From: an uncultured Chloroflexia bacterium
Lineage (GTDB): Bacteria; Chloroflexota; Anaerolineae; Anaerolineales; Anaerolineaceae
Length of the DNA: 64,000 nucleotides
Assembly: GCA_963820415.1 (NCBI GenBank)
Contig: CAWFZT010000004.1
Location: 261,344-325,343 of the forward strand
Direction: 5' to 3'
Below, piece by piece: positions 2,737-52,978 of this stretch. The translations under genes were made by a program, and so were the position numbers. Positions within the stretch are counted from its first letter, which is position 1. Each line of letters opens with the position of its first letter. The notes below the pieces were generated by a model. The model saw only the letters and a program-made list of their open reading frames with translations. It was not told where the DNA came from and did no database searches.

Positions 2737-3177
2737 GTACGACGGCCAGGGCCGCCTAACTAGGTGTTCAGCCGCCGTTTGGTGGCTCAACAGCTTATAG
2801 GCCGTTGCGGTCTAATCACCGAAATTAATATAGGCATTAGGCGGTCATAGGTTAAATTCTGAAATATGCTGTTTAAAGTATAACACGGCAGTCAATACCC
2901 CGGAGACAAAATGAACGAACAATTTGCATTATCACCGCACCATTGGACGACCCTTATGACCACCCCGTCTATCTACCAAACTCACGCAATGGGTGCAACC
3001 ATTTCTTGGTTATCTCAAGCGCGTTTGGATTGTTATCTGCACGAGCATGGGTTCATGGCAGCCACAAGAATGTAGTGGTCATAAATGGCACCAAGAAATG
3101 GCTTTTCACTTGGAAGTTGATTTACAGGCTTACAGAGGGCGTCTACCAGACAGTTCGCTGCATCCGGCAGGTGGAAG

Positions 3178-22750: not shown

Positions 22751-22845
22751 GGGCTCATTAGGATTTACCTTGGAAGGTCCCCAGATTTTGGGGTGTCATG
22801 ACACACCAAAATCTGGGAGTTCACCACAGCTATTCCCAGAGAACC
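22751..22845 (+). repeat. long-hairpin palindromic intergenic repeat, copy 1 (complete)
   Basis: The copy reads GGGCTCATTAGGATTTACCTTGGAAGGTCCCCAGATTTTGGGGTGTCATGACACACCAAAATCTGGGAGTTCACCACAGCTATTCCCAGAGAACC. Confidence 0.9.
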
Positions 22846-41743: not shown

Positions 41744-41851
41744 GGCTCATTGGGATTTACCGTGGAAGGTCCCCAGATTTTGGGGTATGAGCGTGCGTAG
41801 CACGCTCATACCCCAAAATCTGAGAGTTCACCACGGCTATTCCCAGAGAAC
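41744..41851 (+). repeat. palindromic intergenic repeat, copy 7 (complete, ~24-bp central stem)
   Basis: The copy reads GGCTCATTGGGATTTACCGTGGAAGGTCCCCAGATTTTGGGGTATGAGCGTGCGTAGCACGCTCATACCCCAAAATCTGAGAGTTCACCACGGCTATTCCCAGAGAAC. Confidence 0.9.
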
Positions 41852-43100
41852 TAACTTTTTTCGGAAAGGGCTTTTTCGTAAACTTCGATGACGCGGCTGG
41901 TGATCTTTTCCCAGGCGTAATTCTGCGCTTCGGCGCAGGCCTGCTCGCCCATCTGGCGCTGTATTTCTGGCTGGGAAATGAGGATTGAAAGGCGCTGGCT
42001 CAGGGTTTCGATATCCTCGTCCGGCACCACGTAACCGGTCACCCCGTCTTTGACAAGAAAAGGCAGCCCGCCGACCTGTGATGCAATCACCGGCGTCCCG
42101 CAGGCCATGGCTTCGAGCGCCACCATGCCGAAGGATTTGTAGTGCGATGGGATGATCAGCGCGTCGGCAGAGGAATAATAATAAGGCAGCGTGTCCTGTC
42201 CACGCTTTCCAAGGAACACCACCAGATCGTCCAGGTTCAGGGCGCGGCACAGGGCCTGCAGCCGGGCCATTTCGGCCGTCAAATTGTCGTCAGTCGCCTC
42301 AGGGTCGCCGCCAATGATCGCCAGGCAATGGGGATGCTGATCCAGGGTGCCGTTATTGCGCAGGATTGCCAGGGCGCGCAGGAGCGCATCCACCCCTTTC
42401 AGCGCTTCGATGCGGCCCACGAACAGCAGCATACGGCTTTCACAGGGAATGCCAATCACGCTCCTGGCTTCGTCGAGCGAGATTGGGTAGAAATGGTGTG
42501 TATCCACCCCGGGCGGGATGACGGTCAGTTTGGAAGAAGGGGCGTGGTAAAGGAATTCGAGCTGAGCTTGTTCGGCTTGCGTGGCGACAATCACCTGACG
42601 GGCCGCCCGCAGCACCTGCTGCTCTCCCTCGATGCGATATTCACCCTCTTTTCGGATTCGTCCCTGGCTACCCGGTTTTTCATCATTCCGAGGGTGTGGA
42701 ACATGTGCACGAAGGGAACCTTCCAGGTGCGCCCCAGTTCCATGGCGGCCATCCCGGACATCCAATAATGGCTGTGGATAATATCGTAGTGCAGACCTTT
42801 TTGGCCTGTAAATTTCAGAATGCTCTCAGAAAATTCGGGCAGGTAATCGATGAGCTGGTCTTTAGGCAGGTAAACCTCGGGGCCGGCAGGGATGTGGACG
42901 ACGCGGTTTCCATAGCCAAGCTCATGCAGCACGTGTGGAACGTGCTCATCCTGTGAGCGGGTGAATACGTCCACGTGCACGCCGGCCTGGCCCAGGTAAC
43001 GGGTCAGCTCGCGGACGTAAACATTCATCCCGCCGGTATCCTTGCCTCCCAGGATCGCCAGTGGGCAGGTGTGGTAAGACAGCATCGCCACGTTCAGCAT
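41851..43100 (-). pseudogene. GT4 glycosyltransferase (MshA-like), one frame disruption (or assembly indel)
   Basis: ORFs 42591-43148 and 41851-42765 are consecutive parts in different frames. The join lies near 42640-42700 (...HTLGMMKNRVARDES / RIRKEGEYRIEGEQQVLRAA...). The true start is the ATG at 43100 (MLNVAMLSYHTCPLAILGGKDTGGMNVYV). The ORF-track extension upstream of it overlaps the tRNA. Confidence 0.75.
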
Positions 43101-43104
43101 ACTC

Positions 43105-43134
43105 TTGTCTATTCTAACTTGCTCCTGGTATAAT
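43105..43134 (+). promoter_or_regulatory. promoter of tRNA-Thr
   Basis: TTGTCT, an 18-nt spacer, then TATAAT (43129-43134). The tRNA 5' end lies 10 nt downstream. TATAAT is retained in the second copy. Confidence 0.5.
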
Positions 43135-43143
43135 TTGCAAGCC

Positions 43144-43216
43144 GCCACCGTAGCTCAGTTGGTAGAGCAGACGATTCGTAATCGTCCGGTCAAGGGTTCG
43201 ACTCCCTTCGGTGGCT
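43144..43216 (+). tRNA. tRNA-Thr (anticodon CGU)
   Basis: 73 nt, folded by hand: acceptor GCCACCG/CGGTGGC, D arm GCTC-AGTTGGTA-GAGC, anticodon arm GACGA-TTCGTAA-TCGTC, T arm AAGGG-TTCGACT-CCCTT, discriminator T. No CCA is encoded. Confidence 0.9.
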
Positions 43217-43377
43217 TTTTTCATAATGAACTGGTGGGATTTAAACGGTAAACTCTTTAATTTAGCGAATGACTATGAAACATACCTAATTGCAGGGAGC
43301 AACAAAACCAGATGGATAAAAATCCATCTCGTTTTATGGCAGTTGGATTTTACCTAATGGGGTTGGGATTTCTTTTA

Positions 43378-45399
43378 TTAGTTCTTCAACTTATATATTT
43401 TCCAATGATCTTTACCTATTTCCCCGGCAATATCGTAATTCATACAAATGTAATTTAATACTTCAAACATGTCATCAGGTAGGGGTTTTTCTGGCATGAT
43501 GCACTGGCCGCTGTGATTAATTTCGATAAATGGCGTCGATGGTAAATAAGTATTTATTATGATTTTAGGGGGTTTAGTTTTAAGATCATTGAGCATCTCT
43601 TGAGACAGCTCTGGGCTTGCATAACCAATACGGTATAACGGCTTTTGATGCACAAATCGAGTTGGGGCATCCCGGCCTGACATAAAATTAATGACGGTTT
43701 GAGATCCCCAAAGTAAAACATAATCCCCCTGTTTAGTTGTAGATTTAATATATTGAACAACTTTGGTAACAGCTATTTCAGGGGGCTGCTGGTACTCTTT
43801 AATAAGTTGGATGATGGGTTTATACACAATCATAATCAAGGCGATCATATAAATAATAAACTTCAAAGAATGGTTTGATATGGGTTTATGAGCATATTCC
43901 CATCCATAACCAATCAAAATAGCGAAACATGGTAACAAGGTAAAAAAGTAATGATGATAGTTCTTACCAGACAGGCTGATAAGAATAATTTCAATCGGGA
44001 AATCAACCAAAGCCACAAGCAAAATCACAGGCAATTTTCTGACATAATCTATGCCCCGTCTGACAAAAGCAGCCCAAATCACCAGGCCAAAATAATAAAA
44101 CCAGGATGCTGTTAGAAACACCCGGAATATACTCCCAACTGCTTCAATTCTGTCTTGTGTTGTAATATCCGAATACAGGAAATTAAAACGATAAGCGACA
44201 TCCCAGAATTCCCAAAGTGAGTGATTGATATAGAAATAGAGGATGCAAGCACCTTGCACCAACACCAGCCCGCCCAAAAACCAGAAGAAATCGGCCAAGT
44301 GGATTGTTCTATCTTTGGTTAAGAATTTATAAGCAGAGATAATCAATAATGCGGCCCAAATCCCGATCAGGGTTTGTTTGAGCATTAAAGCCATTCCCAT
44401 CGCCCCGCCAATTAAAAACCACCTCCATGGTTTTTTCTTATCCATCACCATGAAATGACAGAATAAGAACAGGGCAATGCACTGGAATGGTATGCCAAAC
44501 TCTTCGGTGAAGTTACCACCTTCATTTGGGAAAACAATATTGGTTATTAACCCGACCAAAGCTAATAATAAAGCTGGCATGGAAACATTTTTCCGAAAAA
44601 CTCCATATAACAGTAAAACTGAGGCAAACAATGACATCACTTCTAATGCCCACACCCCCCATATTGAACGATTTGATATGAATAGCCCCAGCGCATCAAT
44701 ATAAAAAATTAACGGCGGTTTGTGATCCCAAAGATTCTTATAGGGGATATCTCCCTTAAGAATACGTGAGCCAAAATAGAGAAAAATACCCGAATCATTT
44801 TGAGGCATCTGCCCAGAAAAAACGGGGGAAATAGCCAAATAAACGCCAATAGTGAGAAAAGCTGCCAGGGGAATAAACCAAAACAAGGGATGGATTGTTT
44901 TTATGAAATTATTCACTTCTTTAAAAGCAACATCCCAGTTCTCGCTGGTAAGAATAAGATCTTTAAAATACAACCTGATTATGATTAATAATTGAAGACC
45001 TAAAATTAACAACCATGCAATAAAGAAAACCCCTCTTTGGAGGAAAAAGCCTATAGAACCTAAGAACATCATATCTGATAGGGCTGCAATAATGAGCGCA
45101 AATATGGCTAACAGAACAAAACACAGGCATAGTGTCGTTATATAGATTATCCGATGAGCCGATTGTAGGAAGCGGTAAAATTTTTCAAGCCATGCCGGTC
45201 TTGTGGCAAATACTATGAGGGCTGTTATATACACAAACACACAAAAAATAATACAAAAAAGCATTAACAATCTGGGCAGAGAAAATCCATAGATAATGGC
45301 ATTTTTCTCCATGGAAGTGGATGAAGAAATGAGATAAACAATGATTGAACTAACAATAATAAATATACTGGTCAGAATTTGAGTAAATTTATTCTTCAT
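43378..45399 (-). CDS. GT-C fold membrane glycosyltransferase (ArnT/PMT-like)
   Basis: 673 aa with more than 10 TM segments and a soluble C-terminal domain. It is AT-rich. The family call rests on architecture and general resemblance. Confidence 0.6.
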   Translation of the reverse strand: MKNKFTQILTSIFIIVSSIIVYLISSSTSMEKNAIIYGFSLPRLLMLFCIIFCVFVYITALIVFATRPAWLEKFYRFLQSAHRIIYITTLCLCFVLLAIFALIIAALSDMMFLGSIGFFLQRGVFFIAWLLILGLQLLIIIRLYFKDLILTSENWDVAFKEVNNFIKTIHPLFWFIPLAAFLTIGVYLAISPVFSGQMPQNDSGIFLYFGSRILKGDIPYKNLWDHKPPLIFYIDALGLFISNRSIWGVWALEVMSLFASVLLLYGVFRKNVSMPALLLALVGLITNIVFPNEGGNFTEEFGIPFQCIALFLFCHFMVMDKKKPWRWFLIGGAMGMALMLKQTLIGIWAALLIISAYKFLTKDRTIHLADFFWFLGGLVLVQGACILYFYINHSLWEFWDVAYRFNFLYSDITTQDRIEAVGSIFRVFLTASWFYYFGLVIWAAFVRRGIDYVRKLPVILLVALVDFPIEIILISLSGKNYHHYFFTLLPCFAILIGYGWEYAHKPISNHSLKFIIYMIALIMIVYKPIIQLIKEYQQPPEIAVTKVVQYIKSTTKQGDYVLLWGSQTVINFMSGRDAPTRFVHQKPLYRIGYASPELSQEMLNDLKTKPPKIIINTYLPSTPFIEINHSGQCIMPEKPLPDDMFEVLNYICMNYDIAGEIGKDHWKIYKLKN

Positions 45400-45404
45400 G
45401 TCTT

Positions 45405-46976
45405 TTAGTTACCGGTCATCTTATAAACCGTCAAGATATCAGCATCGCCGACCTTTATAGAATAAACAGCCTTCCCTGCAATATGTCTGTTTATAGAGTA
45501 GTAATAAGTAGTTATGGTGTAATCTGGCGGTTGGTCTTCAGAGATGATCAATCTCTGACGATCTGATAATGGCAACAGCATCTTCCCATTTGGGAAATCT
45601 AAAACTCGCACAATTATTTTTTGACCGGGGTCTGTTCTGGCGATATACTTCAAGCCATCCAAGGTCGACACTCCCCACACATCCAGGCCAAACCGCTCTT
45701 TGATGATTGACATTTTGGAACCGGCCAGAAAATTGAAGTAAGTATATTGGTAGGGATGATAGCGGATCATAAAATAGACCGGATAAGCCAGCCCAATGAT
45801 TAAAATTAAGGTTGTCCAAAGCCGCCAGGATTGGGTTTTTTGGCGCATTTTATCAGTGAGAGACTTGAAGCCATATAACGAGATCAACAACAAGGCAGGA
45901 TAGACGAAGTACATCTGGCGATTATCGGTATAGATGACCGATTTCATCACGATCACGGCGACAATGGGGAGAATGCCACAGGCTGCGACCAGGTACAGGT
46001 TGCGCATGGACAGGAAATGTTCTCTTAACCTGGACTTTAAAGTATGGACGGCGAGGGTTATGCTACCTAGAAGAAACAGCGCCAGGTAGAACACAGGCGA
46101 GCTGATCGAGAACCAGACGATAGAATAATGCCAGGGAATGTTGTTTCGGATATCATGTCCCATGTATAACTGAAAATCATTCCACGGGTACTGTTTCATA
46201 AGTTTAAAGGCCTGGACATAATTTTCAATGGTGTGCGTATACAATGTTGGGGTAAACCAATTCACCAATCCTGCAGCCACAAACAAAGACGTAAGCAAGA
46301 AGATGCCGGCTTTTAGATAACTCCTCCATTTGTCTCTAGACAAAAACAGATCGAAGAAATAGAAAAAGAGGGTAATCGGAATGATGATCAACCCTGGCGT
46401 GCGGATGCTGCATACTACCCCAATCGCAATGCCGTGCAAGATGGCTGTGAAAATATTTTTCTTTTCCAGGAGCAGCAGCAAGGTATAAATAGAAATGACA
46501 TACGCGCTCAGGAAAGGAATGTCTTTGGGATTGTAGAAGGAATGGGCGAAAATCCTGGGGCTGATAATGAGGAACAGCGAGCCTAACAAGCCGATCTTCC
46601 AATCCTTGAAGATCTTCTTCCCGATCAGGAAAAAGATAAACACGGAAAATACAAAAAAGGCAAAGGTTACTTGATGCCGTCGCCAATAGATCGCCTGTGT
46701 ATCTCCGCTCGGAGCGAACCAATATAGAACCATGCTGAAAAGTGGAGGATAATAGCAAACGTTTTCCCACCCGGTACATGCCTTCACAAACTCGCTTTGG
46801 AGGCCTCCGATAAAGCGTTCGTAATTGACCCTTCCCCTGAGAAAATCAATTTTTTCATCTACAGATATTCCGTAATCTTTATAAATTAAGAAACCTGTTA
46901 AACTGTACGTACAAAAAAAACAAAATACGAAGAGTGCCGGAAGTATTTTTCTTTGGCCAAATTTTATTCCCTTCAT
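45405..46976 (-). CDS. GT-C fold membrane glycosyltransferase (ArnT/dolichyl-phosphate-mannose mannosyltransferase-like)
   Basis: 523 aa. The N-terminal YKDYGISVDE and PPLF loop motifs resemble the GT39/GT83 first periplasmic loop. It is polytopic and AT-rich. Confidence 0.65.
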   Translation of the reverse strand: MKGIKFGQRKILPALFVFCFFCTYSLTGFLIYKDYGISVDEKIDFLRGRVNYERFIGGLQSEFVKACTGWENVCYYPPLFSMVLYWFAPSGDTQAIYWRRHQVTFAFFVFSVFIFFLIGKKIFKDWKIGLLGSLFLIISPRIFAHSFYNPKDIPFLSAYVISIYTLLLLLEKKNIFTAILHGIAIGVVCSIRTPGLIIIPITLFFYFFDLFLSRDKWRSYLKAGIFLLTSLFVAAGLVNWFTPTLYTHTIENYVQAFKLMKQYPWNDFQLYMGHDIRNNIPWHYSIVWFSISSPVFYLALFLLGSITLAVHTLKSRLREHFLSMRNLYLVAACGILPIVAVIVMKSVIYTDNRQMYFVYPALLLISLYGFKSLTDKMRQKTQSWRLWTTLILIIGLAYPVYFMIRYHPYQYTYFNFLAGSKMSIIKERFGLDVWGVSTLDGLKYIARTDPGQKIIVRVLDFPNGKMLLPLSDRQRLIISEDQPPDYTITTYYYSINRHIAGKAVYSIKVGDADILTVYKMTGN

Positions 46977-47283
46977 ATTCCATAATTTCCTTTCACTTCT
47001 GTTTCCGCTAAAAGCAGAACTCTAAACAGCCGGAAAAGAATTCCGGAGTTATCTAAACTTAACAATTGAACCTGTTATCTGTACAACGATTTCAACGGTT
47101 GCGTCAAAACGCTCCTTTTCAAATGCAATGCCAGGATTCTGTTAGGTAAATAGATGGTGACCAAAGCCTTTTTGCGTAGTTGTTCTGGTAAAGGGTAACT
47201 TTGCGGAAAGGATTTACTCGTCAAGATGTTGTGGAAGTGCCCAGGCGTACGTTTCTGGTGGCGATCCCACAAATATGTGGGTG

Positions 47284-47379
47284 CAACTCGCGCACGTAAA
47301 CGTTCATCCCGCCGGTATCCTTGCCTCCCAGGATTGCCAGCGGGCAGGTGTGGTAAGATAGCATCGCCACGTTAAGCAT
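47284..47379 (-). pseudogene. 5' fragment (32 codons) of a second GT4 (MshA-like) gene
   Basis: The encoded MLNVAMLSYHTCPLAILGGKDTGGMNVYVREL is identical to the intact gene despite 7 nucleotide differences. Homology ends at codon 33. Confidence 0.85.
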
Positions 47380-47422
47380 ACTCTTGTCTATTCTAACTTG
47401 CTCCTGGTATAATCTGCAAGCC

Positions 47423-47495
47423 GCCACCGTAGCTCAGTTGGTAGAGCAGACGATTTGTAATCGTCCGGTCAAGGGTTCGACTCCATTCGGTGGCT
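47423..47495 (+). tRNA. tRNA-Thr (anticodon UGU), with one T-stem mismatch
   Basis: It is identical to 43144-43216 except for anticodon loop TTTGTAA (C34 to T) and T-stem 3' strand CCATT, which gives a G:A mismatch. Confidence 0.8.
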
Positions 47496-47564
47496 TTTTT
47501 ATTTTAATTTCCAGTAACTGCTCAGGCACTGGGGTGGTAAACATTCTTTAGAAACGAAAAGAGG

Positions 47565-47705
47565 TCACTGTAAGGTGAACTCCTTTCTTAAGGTTGAGTA
47601 TAGCATTGCCTGATCATTCACAGTATAGACTTGAGAAGGCGTCTGGTAGTCGAGGGCCTGGTGAGGGCGCCCGAAGTTGAAGAAGTGGAAGTAGTCTTTG
47701 AAAAG
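47565..47705 (-). mobile_element. C-terminal relic of an rve (DDE integrase-core) transposase, IS3/IS481-like
   Basis: The minus-strand translation is LFKDYFHFFNFGRPHQALDYQTPSQVYTVNDQAMLYSTLRKEFTLQ*. It carries the typical Y/FN..RPHQAL.Y.TP..VY tail. No upstream part is present. Confidence 0.7.
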
Positions 47706-47714
47706 GACAATAAA

Positions 47715-47951
47715 TTATTGTTGTATTTTTATTGTCTTCCAAAGAGGATTTAGGTAATCTATGCTTTCACCGGAAAATCTAGCGTGATCTTGATGATGTA
47801 TACACTCTGGGTTATTACAAAGAAAATTGTCACACAGAATTGATGAAGGCATATCCTTTTTATATTTTAATTCCCTTAAATCCACAATTTTCATTATATT
47901 GGATGCATAGCAAAATTTAGACATAGGTGTTTCACTATAAGCCTTTGCCAT
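47715..47951 (-). CDS. small Cys/His-containing hypothetical protein in AT-rich DNA
   Basis: 78-aa ORF only. No family recognised and no clear SD. Confidence 0.3.
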   Translation of the reverse strand: MAKAYSETPMSKFCYASNIMKIVDLRELKYKKDMPSSILCDNFLCNNPECIHHQDHARFSGESIDYLNPLWKTIKIQQ

Positions 47952-48026
47952 TTCTGTACCCTCCCTTTATGAATTGTGAAAACAATTCATAATAATTATA
48001 TACCTTTAATCTTAACTGTCTGCCGT

Positions 48027-48662
48027 CTAAATGGCATCCTCCGTCCTTTTCTTGCTGGCCAATTTCTGCGCGGGGCGGCTGAAAACCCAGGTAATTCCCA
48101 CAAAAATACCTATGGCTGCCATAGCTGCCCCGCCGGCCAGGTCCAGCACGTAATGCTGTTTGGTAAAAAGGGTTGCGCCAATCACCAGCATCACCATCCC
48201 AAGCATAGGGATAAGCAGCTTGGGTTTCCAGCGCGTTCCGAAATAAGCCACCAGCACGGCAAAATACATGTGCCCGCTGGGAAATGCGTTATTAGGCCGG
48301 TCGTTAGCGTACAAAAAACGCAGCAGGTTGGAAGCCCAATCCTGGCCGGTGATCTCTGGGCGCTGTACATAGGTCGGCCAGAAGATGAAAATCAACATAC
48401 TGGGTAAGATAGTGACCAGCGAGGCCAGGATGTACGCCTTGAACAGGCGCTCCTCCATCTTGAAAACTGCCCACAGGTCGAACAGCACCCATACCCCTAG
48501 CATCAAGAAGTATGGGACAGTCCAAATGGGCCAGAGCGGGATGAGGCGATCCAGGGGAGTGTCCAGGAGCACTCCCCCATGCATGACCCGGTTGGTCAGA
48601 GTGTAGACGCATTGGGCCAAAACGACGATCACTGCCAGGGCGAGGCGTTTGGTAAGGCGCAT
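48027..48662 (-). CDS. PAP2-superfamily membrane phosphatase/phosphotransferase
   Basis: 211 aa and polytopic, with FPSGHM and TKQHYVLD motifs. Confidence 0.7.
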   Translation of the reverse strand: MRLTKRLALAVIVVLAQCVYTLTNRVMHGGVLLDTPLDRLIPLWPIWTVPYFLMLGVWVLFDLWAVFKMEERLFKAYILASLVTILPSMLIFIFWPTYVQRPEITGQDWASNLLRFLYANDRPNNAFPSGHMYFAVLVAYFGTRWKPKLLIPMLGMVMLVIGATLFTKQHYVLDLAGGAAMAAIGIFVGITWVFSRPAQKLASKKRTEDAI

Positions 48663-49834: not shown

Positions 49835-49927
49835 GTTCTCTGGGAATAGCCGTGGTGAACTCCCAGATTTTAGCTTGTCATGACATCCCAAAATCTGGGG
49901 ACTTTCTATGGTAAATTCCAATGAGCC
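49835..49927 (-). repeat. palindromic intergenic repeat, copy 8 (complete, inverted orientation)
   Basis: The copy reads GTTCTCTGGGAATAGCCGTGGTGAACTCCCAGATTTTAGCTTGTCATGACATCCCAAAATCTGGGGACTTTCTATGGTAAATTCCAATGAGCC. Confidence 0.9.
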
Positions 49928-50023
49928 AAGTTAATTGTGAAGCGCCGATAGTTTTTGTTGAATAGGGGTCAGGTGGATTTTTTTTGCTTCTACCCGCCAT
50001 ACTAATATCCGGCTTTGGTGATC

Positions 50024-52874: not shown

Positions 52875-52978
52875 TCCATTGGGATTTTCTGTGAAAGGTC
52901 CCCAGATTTTGGGGGGTGAGCGTGCGTAGCACGTTCACCCCCCAAAATCTGGGAGTTCACCACGGTTATTCCCAGAGG
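52875..52978 (+). repeat. palindromic intergenic repeat, copy 9 (complete)
   Basis: The copy reads TCCATTGGGATTTTCTGTGAAAGGTCCCCAGATTTTGGGGGGTGAGCGTGCGTAGCACGTTCACCCCCCAAAATCTGGGAGTTCACCACGGTTATTCCCAGAGG. Confidence 0.9.

What the first reader, a model, noticed from the sequence alone, without database searches (positions are those of the whole stretch)
43144..47495. Near-identical tRNA-Thr pair that differs in the anticodon (CGU versus UGU)
The two 73-nt tRNA genes differ at only two positions. One is C34 to T in the anticodon. The other is a C-to-A change that creates a G:A mismatch in the T stem of the UGU copy. Both keep the upstream TATAAT box. Isoacceptors are normally much more divergent. 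This looks like anticodon switching after duplication or transfer (tRNA gene recruitment). It could alter decoding capacity for ACA/ACG codons, or the mismatched copy could be on its way to becoming a pseudogene.
Basis: seen in the sequence. Interest (0 to 1): 0.6.

Follow-up and report, generated by a model that had tools for sequence, protein, structure and literature searches.

The report
Duplicated threonine tRNA with drifted anticodon
An inserted gene island left a spare copy of a threonine tRNA gene in this peat bacterium; the spare has since picked up two point mutations, one changing its anticodon from CGU to UGU. This is a known and probably near-neutral kind of tRNA evolution, but a sister genus has carried the same change through to full replacement of its normal UGU gene.

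Summary
The tRNA-Thr genes at 43144-43216 (CGU) and 47423-47495 (UGU) differ only at C34U and C63A, and C63A gives a G51:A63 mismatch. They are not free-standing genes. Each lies in a 217-nt direct repeat that also carries the promoter and the first 32 codons of the divergent GT4 gene. The repeats bracket a 4.06-kb AT-rich island encoding two GT39/PMT_2 glycosyltransferases.

- **Empty site:** a related metagenome contig has no island and a single CGU gene.
- **Ancestral state:** all 11 relatives checked have CGU at this locus.
- **Order of events:** two independent conspecific assemblies (98% identical) have copy B as CGU with A63. The mismatch is therefore older, and the anticodon change is private to this MAG.
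- **Redundancy:** the genome keeps a canonical, only 69%-identical tRNA-Thr(UGU) elsewhere.
- **Rate:** copy B changes as fast as its non-functional flank, while copy A is invariant.

Best reading: a redundant duplicate under relaxed constraint that has made a harmless isoacceptor shift. Whether it functions is unknown.

In a sister genus, all three species carry a CGU-derived UGU gene as their only UGU tRNA and have deleted the canonical one. This is a new member of a known kind.

The parts
41851..43100 (-). GT4-family glycosyltransferase gene, divergent from tRNA copy A. It is read in two frames here because a T-run at about 42649-42652 is one base shorter than in related contigs.
   Evidence: Pfam Glyco_transf_4 and Glycos_transf_1. 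The gene is intact (416-423 aa) in L027, L059 and L060, and the gap is located. The GT4-tRNA arrangement is conserved across the order.
43005..43221 (+). Direct repeat copy A: GT4 codons 1-32 (minus strand), the divergent promoters, tRNA-Thr(CGU) and the T-run.
   Evidence: the repeat finder D1; alignment.
43105..43134 (+). Promoter-like site TTGTCT-18-TATAAT with an upstream TG, 9 nt before tRNA copy A.
   Evidence: The CTGGTATAAT motif is conserved in related contigs.
43144..43216 (+). tRNA-Thr(CGU), the ancestral and only CGU gene of the genome.
   Evidence: ARAGORN; Rfam tRNA 69.9 bits; identical sequence in L020, L021, L026, L027 and L059.
43222..47283 (.). Inserted AT-rich island (about 40% GC against 52-58% in the flanks). 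It is absent from the empty-site contig L026.
   Evidence: Composition. L026 joins the tRNA to the PAP2 gene across about 100 nt.
43378..45399 (-). 673-aa polytopic GT39/PMT_2 (ArnT-like) glycosyltransferase.
   Evidence: Pfam PMT_2, E 3.8e-9. Homologues are Anaerolineae GT39 proteins at 57% identity or less outside the species.
45405..46976 (-). 523-aa polytopic PMT_2-family glycosyltransferase.
   Evidence: Pfam PMT_2, E 2.1e-6.
47284..47500 (+). Direct repeat copy B: a stranded 32-codon GT4 fragment (47284-47379, minus strand), the promoters, tRNA-Thr(UGU) and the T-run.
47384..47413 (+). Promoter-like site identical to the one before copy A.
47423..47495 (+). tRNA-Thr(UGU), derived from the CGU gene. 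T34 is at 47456 and is private to this genome. A63 is at 47485 and is shared with conspecifics.
   Evidence: ARAGORN; Rfam 63.7 bits with pair 51-63 flagged. L022 and L059 have C34 and A63.
47565..47714 (-). Relic of the C-terminus of an rve-type (DDE) transposase, downstream of copy B.
   Evidence: Stop-to-stop ORF containing FGRPHQALDYQTP. Weak Pfam rve_3 hit, E 0.0014, below the family cut-off.
48027..48662 (-). PAP2-family gene, the native right flank. Homology with the empty-site contig resumes here.
   Evidence: Pfam; L026 alignment.

Best explanation
The pair is a by-product of an island insertion next to tRNA-Thr(CGU) in an Anaerolineales (Chloroflexota) genome from peat.

**What is shown**
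- A 4.06-kb AT-rich segment carrying two GT39/PMT_2 glycosyltransferase genes sits immediately after the tRNA's T-run.
- It is bracketed by a 217-nt direct duplication. Each repeat holds the first 32 codons of the divergent GT4 gene, both promoters and the whole tRNA.
- The insertion therefore created a second, fully equipped CGU gene.
- The distal copy first acquired C63A (G51:A63 in the T stem). This change is shared by all conspecific assemblies.
- It then acquired C34U in this genome alone.

**What is inferred**
- Copy B was redundant with copy A and has evolved under relaxed constraint.
- The positions known as ThrRS identity elements in E. coli and T. thermophilus (G1-C72, C2-G71, G35, U36; from the literature, not tested here) are intact. 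If expressed, the product should still be charged with threonine.
- With U34 it would read ACA and, by wobble, ACG. The shift is synonymous and harmless, so it can drift in without selection.
- I read it as a nearly neutral isoacceptor shift in a spare gene that may be weakly functional or decaying, not a response to a decoding need.
- Genus g5 shows that such a copy can later be co-opted.
- The mechanism that made the duplication is not settled. No integrase is present, and a GGGT microhomology sits at the left repeat edge. That fits single-crossover or illegitimate recombination better than a site-specific recombinase.
For: **Anatomy**
- 217-nt repeats, AT-rich insert and PMT_2 genes.
- Empty site in L026 (92-93% identical): GT4, tRNA(CGU), about 100 nt, then PAP2.

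**Ancestral anticodon**
- 11 of 11 family and order relatives have CGU at the syntenic GT4-tRNA locus.
- Among 401 genomes of the order, only G000 carries T34 on this backbone.

**Order and privacy of the mutations**
- JGI contig L022 (97.8% identical) and ENA contig L059 (98.0%, spanning both copies) have copy B as CGU with A63.

**Redundancy**
- The genome census gives 48 tRNAs, including a canonical UGU at C6:747808 in the Thr-Tyr-Thr(GGU) cluster. It is 69% identical to copy B.

**Relaxed constraint**
- With the differences polarised, copy B has 3 derived changes in 144 non-tRNA repeat positions and 2 in 73 tRNA positions (2.1% against 2.7%).
- Copy A's tRNA is unchanged in contigs whose GT4 and upstream flanks are only about 68-71% identical (L020), and in all closer ones.

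**Still gene-like**
- Identical promoter-like site and Rfam score of 63.7 bits.
- Single T-stem mismatches also occur in about four other single-copy tRNAs of the genome.

**Precedent**
- Duplication followed by a nucleotide-34 change within one amino acid is documented in bacteria (PMC4041420).
Against: - With only two substitutions in copy B, one landing on nucleotide 34 has a chance of about 3% under pure neutrality. That hints at selection, though the locus was picked because of that difference (ascertainment).
- Genus g5 shows that the same CGU-to-UGU conversion can be selected and fixed.
- The island's own genes use ACA more often than the genome does: 15 of 56 Thr codons against 11.6%.
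- The rate comparison rests on five substitutions.
- Expression and aminoacylation are untested.
- T34 rests on one MAG consensus. The same MAG also shows a homopolymer frameshift that four other assemblies lack.
Confidence: 0.6

Rival explanations
1. Adaptive birth of a second tRNA-Thr(UGU). Under this reading the C34U change was selected because it converts a useless second CGU gene into extra ACA (and ACG) decoding capacity. That could serve the AT-rich island genes or the host generally. It would be the first step of the replacement path completed in genus g5.
For: - The island ORFs use ACA for 27% of Thr codons, against 11.6% genome-wide.
- One of only two substitutions hit nucleotide 34.
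- The promoter, T-run and identity positions are intact.
- In genus g5 a CGU-derived UGU gene is the sole UGU tRNA in three species, and it is 92-95% conserved across them.
Against: - T34 is absent from both conspecific assemblies and from 400 other genomes of the order.
- A destabilising T-stem mismatch arose first and has not been repaired. Cloverleaf energy is -24.7 against -28.1 kcal/mol.
- The island contains only 15 ACA codons.
- A canonical UGU gene is present.
Confidence: 0.25
2. Consensus error or minority variant. Under this reading the T at 47456 is an assembly or polishing error, or a low-frequency allele called into the MAG consensus, and copy B is really CGU as in its conspecifics.
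For: - Two independent assemblies at 98% identity read C.
- Logan contigs of two peat runs break at 47455/47457, as expected if their copy B carries C34. This is an indirect inference.
- The MAG has a 1-nt homopolymer deletion that breaks GT4, which is intact in L027, L059 and L060. CheckM-type contamination is 8.6%.
Against: - The MAG differs from those assemblies at about 2% of all positions. My rough estimate is that a real single-base difference is about 100 times more likely a priori than a substitution error.
- Homopolymer indels are a different class of error.
- Copy A, with the same local sequence, reads C, so no systematic context error is apparent.
Confidence: 0.08
3. Copy B is foreign rather than an in-place duplicate. 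Under this reading the island arrived from a closely related strain as a circle or fragment that already carried that strain's GT4 5' end and tRNA, and it integrated by single-crossover homologous recombination. This concerns origin only and is compatible with any of the functional readings.
For: - All seven differences in the coding part of the repeat are synonymous.
- At the five leftmost sites copy B matches the allele of the 95.6%-identical lineage (L027) and of L026.
- A single (Campbell-type) crossover would produce exactly this repeat-insert-repeat structure.
- No integrase is present.
Against: - The same pattern arises if those five sites simply changed later in the functional GT4 gene of copy A, where only synonymous changes are tolerated.
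- At 43124, copies A and B of this lineage share C against L026 and L027. That suggests common descent or gene conversion.
Confidence: 0.3

Closest known systems
Bacterial tRNA gain by gene duplication followed by an anticodon (nucleotide 34) mutation (Wald and Margalit 2014, NAR, PMC4041420, scenario iii)
   Same: Near-identical paralogues with similar flanks that differ at nucleotide 34 and keep the same amino acid, so synthetase recognition is kept.
   Different: In the published cases the mutation created a tRNA species the genome lacked. Here UGU already exists, the change is private to one genome, and the copy carries a T-stem mismatch. The duplication is also tied to an island insertion.
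tRNA remolding or recruitment: duplication, anticodon change, then loss of the original gene (metazoan mitochondria, PMC4783518; eukaryotic anticodon shifts, PMC3923123; the E. coli experiment of Saks et al. 1998, cited from memory)
   Same: The first two steps, duplication and anticodon change, are present in this window. All three steps are present in sister genus g5.
   Different: In G000 the original UGU gene is retained, so there is no replacement. The shift is isoacceptor (Thr to Thr), not alloacceptor.
Genomic islands integrated at tRNA genes with flanking direct repeats
   Same: An AT-rich accessory segment lies directly 3' of a tRNA gene, is bracketed by direct repeats containing tRNA sequence, and has an empty site in a relative. 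The same locus holds a truncated tRNA copy in L020 and variable DNA in genus g5.
   Different: There is no integrase. The repeat is 217 nt and extends 139 nt upstream of the tRNA into the neighbouring gene, rather than covering only the tRNA's 3' part. The left edge shows only a 4-nt microhomology.
tRNA gene copy-number change by large tandem duplication (Pseudomonas fluorescens SBW25, PMC7661048 and PMC10954465)
   Same: New tRNA gene copies arise through structural rearrangement rather than point mutation alone.
   Different: Those duplications are selected to raise the dosage of an existing species, and the anticodon does not change.

Membership tests
tRNA (Rfam RF00005) | Cloverleaf covariance-model score above the gathering threshold (29 bits). 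| tested here: met
   Copy A scores 69.9 bits and copy B 63.7 bits, both over the full model length. ARAGORN calls both.
tRNA-Thr (bacterial ThrRS substrate) | Identity elements G35 and U36 plus G1-C72 and C2-G71, as established for E. coli and T. thermophilus (literature knowledge). | tested here: met
   Both sequences read GCC...GGC in the acceptor stem and NGT in the anticodon. Charging itself is not testable with these tools.
Isoacceptor anticodon shift after duplication | Paralogues that are near-identical including their flanks and differ at nucleotide 34. | tested here: met
   217-nt repeat at 95% identity, and 2 differences in the 73-nt tRNA including C34T.
Isoacceptor anticodon shift after duplication | Direction of change established from orthologues. 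| tested here: met
   CGU in 11 of 11 syntenic relatives, and in copy B of L022 and L059.
Isoacceptor anticodon shift after duplication | The shift supplies a tRNA species otherwise absent (a gain). | tested here: not met
   A canonical tRNA-Thr(UGU) is present at C6:747808-747881.
tRNA remolding or recruitment (replacement) | Loss of the original gene bearing the new anticodon. | tested here: not met
   Not met in G000. Met in genus g5: the canonical UGU is missing upstream of tRNA-Tyr in G004, G421 and G422, and the only UGU gene there has the CGU backbone.
tRNA pseudogene | Truncation, sub-threshold score or loss of the promoter. | tested here: not met
   Full length, 63.7 bits and an identical promoter-like site.
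tRNA pseudogene | Evolution at the neutral rate, or lack of expression. | tested here: inconclusive
   2 changes in 73 tRNA positions against 3 in 144 flank positions fits neutrality, but the counts are tiny. Expression could not be read from contig-only RNA data.
Integrase-mobilised tRNA-targeting genomic island | A tyrosine or serine recombinase gene next to an att site. | tested here: not met
   The insert holds only two PMT_2 ORFs. The only mobile-element trace is a weak rve relic outside the repeats.
Integrase-mobilised tRNA-targeting genomic island | Deviant composition, flanking direct repeats and an empty site in relatives. | tested here: met

The most novel reading that the evidence does not exclude
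Copy B is a live, newly born tRNA-Thr(UGU) caught one mutation after its birth. On this reading the tRNA-Thr(CGU) locus of this Anaerolineales family is a recurrent insertion site whose duplications repeatedly seed CGU-to-UGU conversions. In genus g5 one such copy has displaced the ancestral UGU gene, which should be indispensable for reading ACA. Together the two cases would show the start and the end of a natural bacterial isoacceptor replacement.
Probability: 0.25. Interest if true: 0.6.

Novelty: new member of a known kind. Interest (0 to 1): 0.4.

Why it matters
In this genome alone the finding is minor: a spare tRNA copy that has drifted.

Its value lies in the comparison. The events here can be put in order: the island insertion created the duplicate, the T-stem mismatch followed, and the anticodon change came last and is private to one strain. 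In the same family, a three-species genus has a CGU-derived gene as its only tRNA-Thr(UGU) and has deleted the canonical gene from the conserved Thr-Tyr-Thr cluster.

The large bacterial survey I read (PMC4041420) found anticodon-mutated duplicates only as additions, never as replacements. This family could therefore be used to study how a mandatory U34 tRNA comes to be replaced.

There is also a practical point for annotation. tRNA counts by anticodon in MAGs can hide paralogues of quite different origin and quality.

Tried and rejected
- **Synonymous differences as proof of a foreign copy.** I first took the seven synonymous differences in the repeat's coding part as proof that copy B evolved as a functional orthologue in another genome. 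Polarising them with L026 and L027 showed that five are derived in the functional copy A. The argument is therefore not decisive.
- **Read laying.** Only Logan contigs were available. They break at the tRNA repeats, and the variant table was truncated before 47456. This gives only an indirect hint of C34 in two runs. The joints (43216 to 47427, 47328 to 43144) have short sides and look like repeat or foreign-tRNA artefacts. The RNA run's contigs over the island are 90-95% identical and cannot show transcription, and its depth over the tRNA bins comes from other organisms' tRNAs.
- **Source run.** No run held more than 0.66 of the sampled words, so the MAG's own reads were not available.
- **First T-stem mismatch census.** It was invalid because ARAGORN's 3' ends vary. 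I redid it with an offset search.
- **Integrase search.** None was found in the insert.
- **78-83-aa ORF at 47715-47966.** It has no Pfam match.
- **Downstream synteny with three other genera.** None was found beyond the tRNA. The empty site came from metagenome contigs instead.
- **G011.** It has two CGU genes on short contigs of a contaminated MAG. I did not interpret this.


Full report
**Observation**

ARAGORN finds two tRNA genes in the window: tRNA-Thr(CGU) at 43144-43216 and tRNA-Thr(UGU) at 47423-47495. Both are on the + strand and 73 nt long, and neither encodes CCA.

They differ at two positions:
- 43177 C versus 47456 T, which is nucleotide 34.
- 43206 C versus 47485 A, which is nucleotide 63.

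Infernal flags the 51-63 pair of the second copy as non-canonical. It scores the copies at 69.9 and 63.7 bits against a threshold of 29. Both are preceded by the same TTGTCT-18-(TG)TATAAT site.

**What the pair is embedded in**

The two genes are the core of a 217-nt direct repeat, 43005-43221 and 47284-47500, with 10 differences. Each repeat contains:
- the first 32 codons of a divergently transcribed GT4 glycosyltransferase gene;
- the shared promoter region;
- the tRNA;
- its T-run.

Between the repeats lie 4,062 nt at about 40% GC, in a neighbourhood of 52-58% GC. This segment encodes two large polytopic PMT_2/GT39 (ArnT-like) glycosyltransferases on the minus strand. Their homologues are other Anaerolineae GT39 proteins, at 57% identity or less outside the species.

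No recombinase gene is present. The only mobile-element trace is a weak rve-type transposase C-terminal relic at 47565-47714, downstream of copy B. The left repeat edge shows only a GGGT microhomology plus one extra base.

**Organism and genome context**

The window is contig C4 of a 5.16-Mb, 15-contig MAG. Exact-pattern hits and named relatives place it in the Anaerolineales (Chloroflexota), and the runs that hold it are peat and wetland metagenomes.

The genome has 48 tRNA genes with almost no redundancy. For threonine it has GGU, CGU (copy A only) and two UGU genes. One UGU is copy B. The other is a canonical gene at C6:747808-747881, in the conserved Thr(UGU)-Tyr-Thr(GGU) cluster. The canonical UGU gene is 69% identical to copy B and 93-96% identical to the canonical UGU genes of two other genera. 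Copy B therefore supplies nothing that was missing.

**Ancestral state and history**

The GT4-tRNA arrangement is conserved through the family and order. All 11 relatives examined carry CGU there. Across 401 genomes of the order, the T34 form of this backbone occurs only in G000.

Metagenome contigs give a finer series.

| Contig | Identity to window | What it shows |
|---|---|---|
| L026 | 92-93% | Empty site: GT4, tRNA(CGU), about 100 nt, PAP2 |
| L027, L060 | about 96% | Island's left junction present; GT4 intact |
| L021 | 98.4% | Copy A and the island |
| L022 (JGI) | 97.8% | Copy B as CGU with A63 |
| L059 (ENA, spans the whole structure) | 98.0% | Copy A CGU with C63; copy B CGU with A63 |

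The order of events is therefore insertion with duplication, then C63A, then C34U. The last step is seen only in this MAG.

**Constraint**

I polarised the ten repeat differences with L026, L027 and L059.
- The five leftmost are derived in copy A's functional GT4 gene. All are synonymous, as expected for a working gene.
- Four are derived in copy B and shared by its conspecifics: 43080, 43095, 43135 and the A63 site.
- T34 is derived in this genome only.

Copy B's lineage thus has 3 changes in 144 non-tRNA positions and 2 in 73 tRNA positions, essentially the same rate. Copy A's tRNA is unchanged even in L020, whose GT4 and upstream flanks are only about 68-71% identical. That is the signature of relaxed constraint on copy B, though it rests on very few events.

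Copy B is not obviously dead.
- Its promoter-like site and T-run are intact.
- Its score is far above threshold.
- The positions known as ThrRS identity elements in model bacteria (G1-C72, C2-G71, G35, U36; literature knowledge) are unchanged.
- About four other single-copy tRNAs of this genome also have one non-canonical T-stem pair.

The mismatch does cost stability. The cloverleaf energy is -24.7 against -28.1 kcal/mol, and the predicted minimum-energy fold loses the T arm. It also falls on one of the T-stem pairs reported to set EF-Tu affinity (literature knowledge).

**Is the T real?**

The MAG carries a one-base homopolymer deletion that splits GT4. The gene is intact in L027, L059 and L060, so some consensus error is plausible. 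However, the MAG differs from its nearest assemblies at about 2% of positions. That is far above any plausible substitution-error rate, and copy A, with the same local context, reads C. I put the error or minority-variant reading at about 8%. The source reads were not available.

**Decoding demand**

Genome-wide, ACA makes up 11.6% of Thr codons and ACG 19.4%. In the two island genes ACA accounts for 15 of 56 Thr codons and ACG for 7 of 56. The direction fits an ACA-serving tRNA. But 15 codons is a negligible demand, and a canonical UGU gene exists.

**A completed version in a sister genus**

In G004, which is in the same family but another genus, the syntenic GT4-tRNA(CGU) is followed by 8.5 kb of miscellaneous accessory genes. 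These include a methyltransferase, NUDIX, GNAT, GGDEF, flavodoxin and LysM/CAP proteins. After them comes a tRNA-Thr(UGU) on the same strand.

Evidence that this UGU gene derives from the CGU gene:
- It is 84-88% identical to most CGU genes (77% to the most divergent one, G003), but only 73-75% identical to canonical UGU genes.
- It shares G004's own acceptor-stem variant with the neighbouring CGU gene.

Evidence that it has replaced the canonical gene:
- A full tRNA census of G004 (47 Rfam hits, 46 typed) finds it to be the only UGU gene.
- The canonical UGU is cleanly missing from its place upstream of tRNA-Tyr, although the upstream gene is syntenic. The spacer is about one tRNA length shorter than in G010.
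- The other two species of the genus (G421, G422) show the same pair 6-12 kb apart, with a 92-95% conserved UGU copy. They show the same loss of the canonical gene.

A CGU-derived copy has therefore replaced the U34 tRNA that ACA decoding requires. This event is independent of the one in G000, where conspecifics still have CGU.

A metagenome contig, L020, also carries a decayed 62-nt 3' tRNA fragment about 1 kb downstream of its CGU gene. The locus seems to be a recurrent insertion site.

**Comparison with what is known**

- Duplication followed by a nucleotide-34 change within one amino acid family has been described in bacteria. Three cases were found among 319 genomes, all as additions (PMC4041420).
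- Anticodon shifts and remolding are well documented in eukaryotes and mitochondria (PMC3923123, PMC4783518).
- Duplication-driven changes in the tRNA gene set have been seen in the laboratory (PMC7661048).

The G000 pair is a further member of this kind, caught very early and probably neutral. The g5 replacement is the less usual observation.

**Verdict**

Duplication followed by an anticodon shift holds. Functional recruitment does not hold in this genome. Incipient decay is plausible.
- Best explanation, at 0.6: a redundant duplicate generated by the island insertion, evolving under relaxed constraint, with a harmless and recent CGU-to-UGU shift.
- Interest is 0.4, mostly because of the family-level comparison.

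Noticed in passing
L029 (G004:C9:40000-54000), L055, L101-L107: In sister genus g5 (G004, G421, G422) the only tRNA-Thr(UGU) gene is a paralogue of the CGU gene, lying 6-12 kb downstream of it. The canonical UGU gene is deleted from the Thr-Tyr-Thr(GGU) cluster. This is a completed isoacceptor replacement.
   Followed up: yes
window 42649-42652: The GT4 gene is frameshifted by a T-run one base shorter than in L021, L027, L059 and L060, where the gene is intact (416-423 aa). This is either a long-read consensus error or a strain-specific pseudogene.
   Followed up: partly
window 41744-41850 (related copies near 49835-49929, 22752-22844 and 52875-52953): A 107-nt palindromic MITE-like element between dinB and GT4 is present in this genome but precisely absent from L027, L059 and L060. 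It is therefore an insertion polymorphism among strains that are 95-98% identical.
   Followed up: partly
window 47565-47714 (-): A 49-codon open stretch with the FGRPHQALDYQTP motif typical of rve/DDE transposase C-termini. It gives a weak Pfam rve_3 hit (E 0.0014) and is a relic just downstream of copy B.
   Followed up: partly
L020 (oriented copy) about 1885-1957 and 2941-3005: A related metagenome contig has a full tRNA-Thr(CGU). About 1 kb downstream it has a decayed 62-65-nt 3' fragment of the same tRNA, bracketing one ORF. This is another insertion scar at the same locus.
   Followed up: no
window 47221-47427 (-): The stranded GT4 fragment keeps its start codon and upstream signals. It reads into island sequence as a 52-codon chimeric ORF from the ATG at 47379, which could be expressed as a small peptide.
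   Followed up: no
G000 contigs C4:362628-362701 and C10:36173-36246: tRNA-Gly(GCC) is the only other duplicated anticodon in the genome. The C10 copy shows three stem mismatches in a crude check. It may be a degenerate copy or come from contaminant DNA (contamination estimate 8.6%).
   Followed up: no
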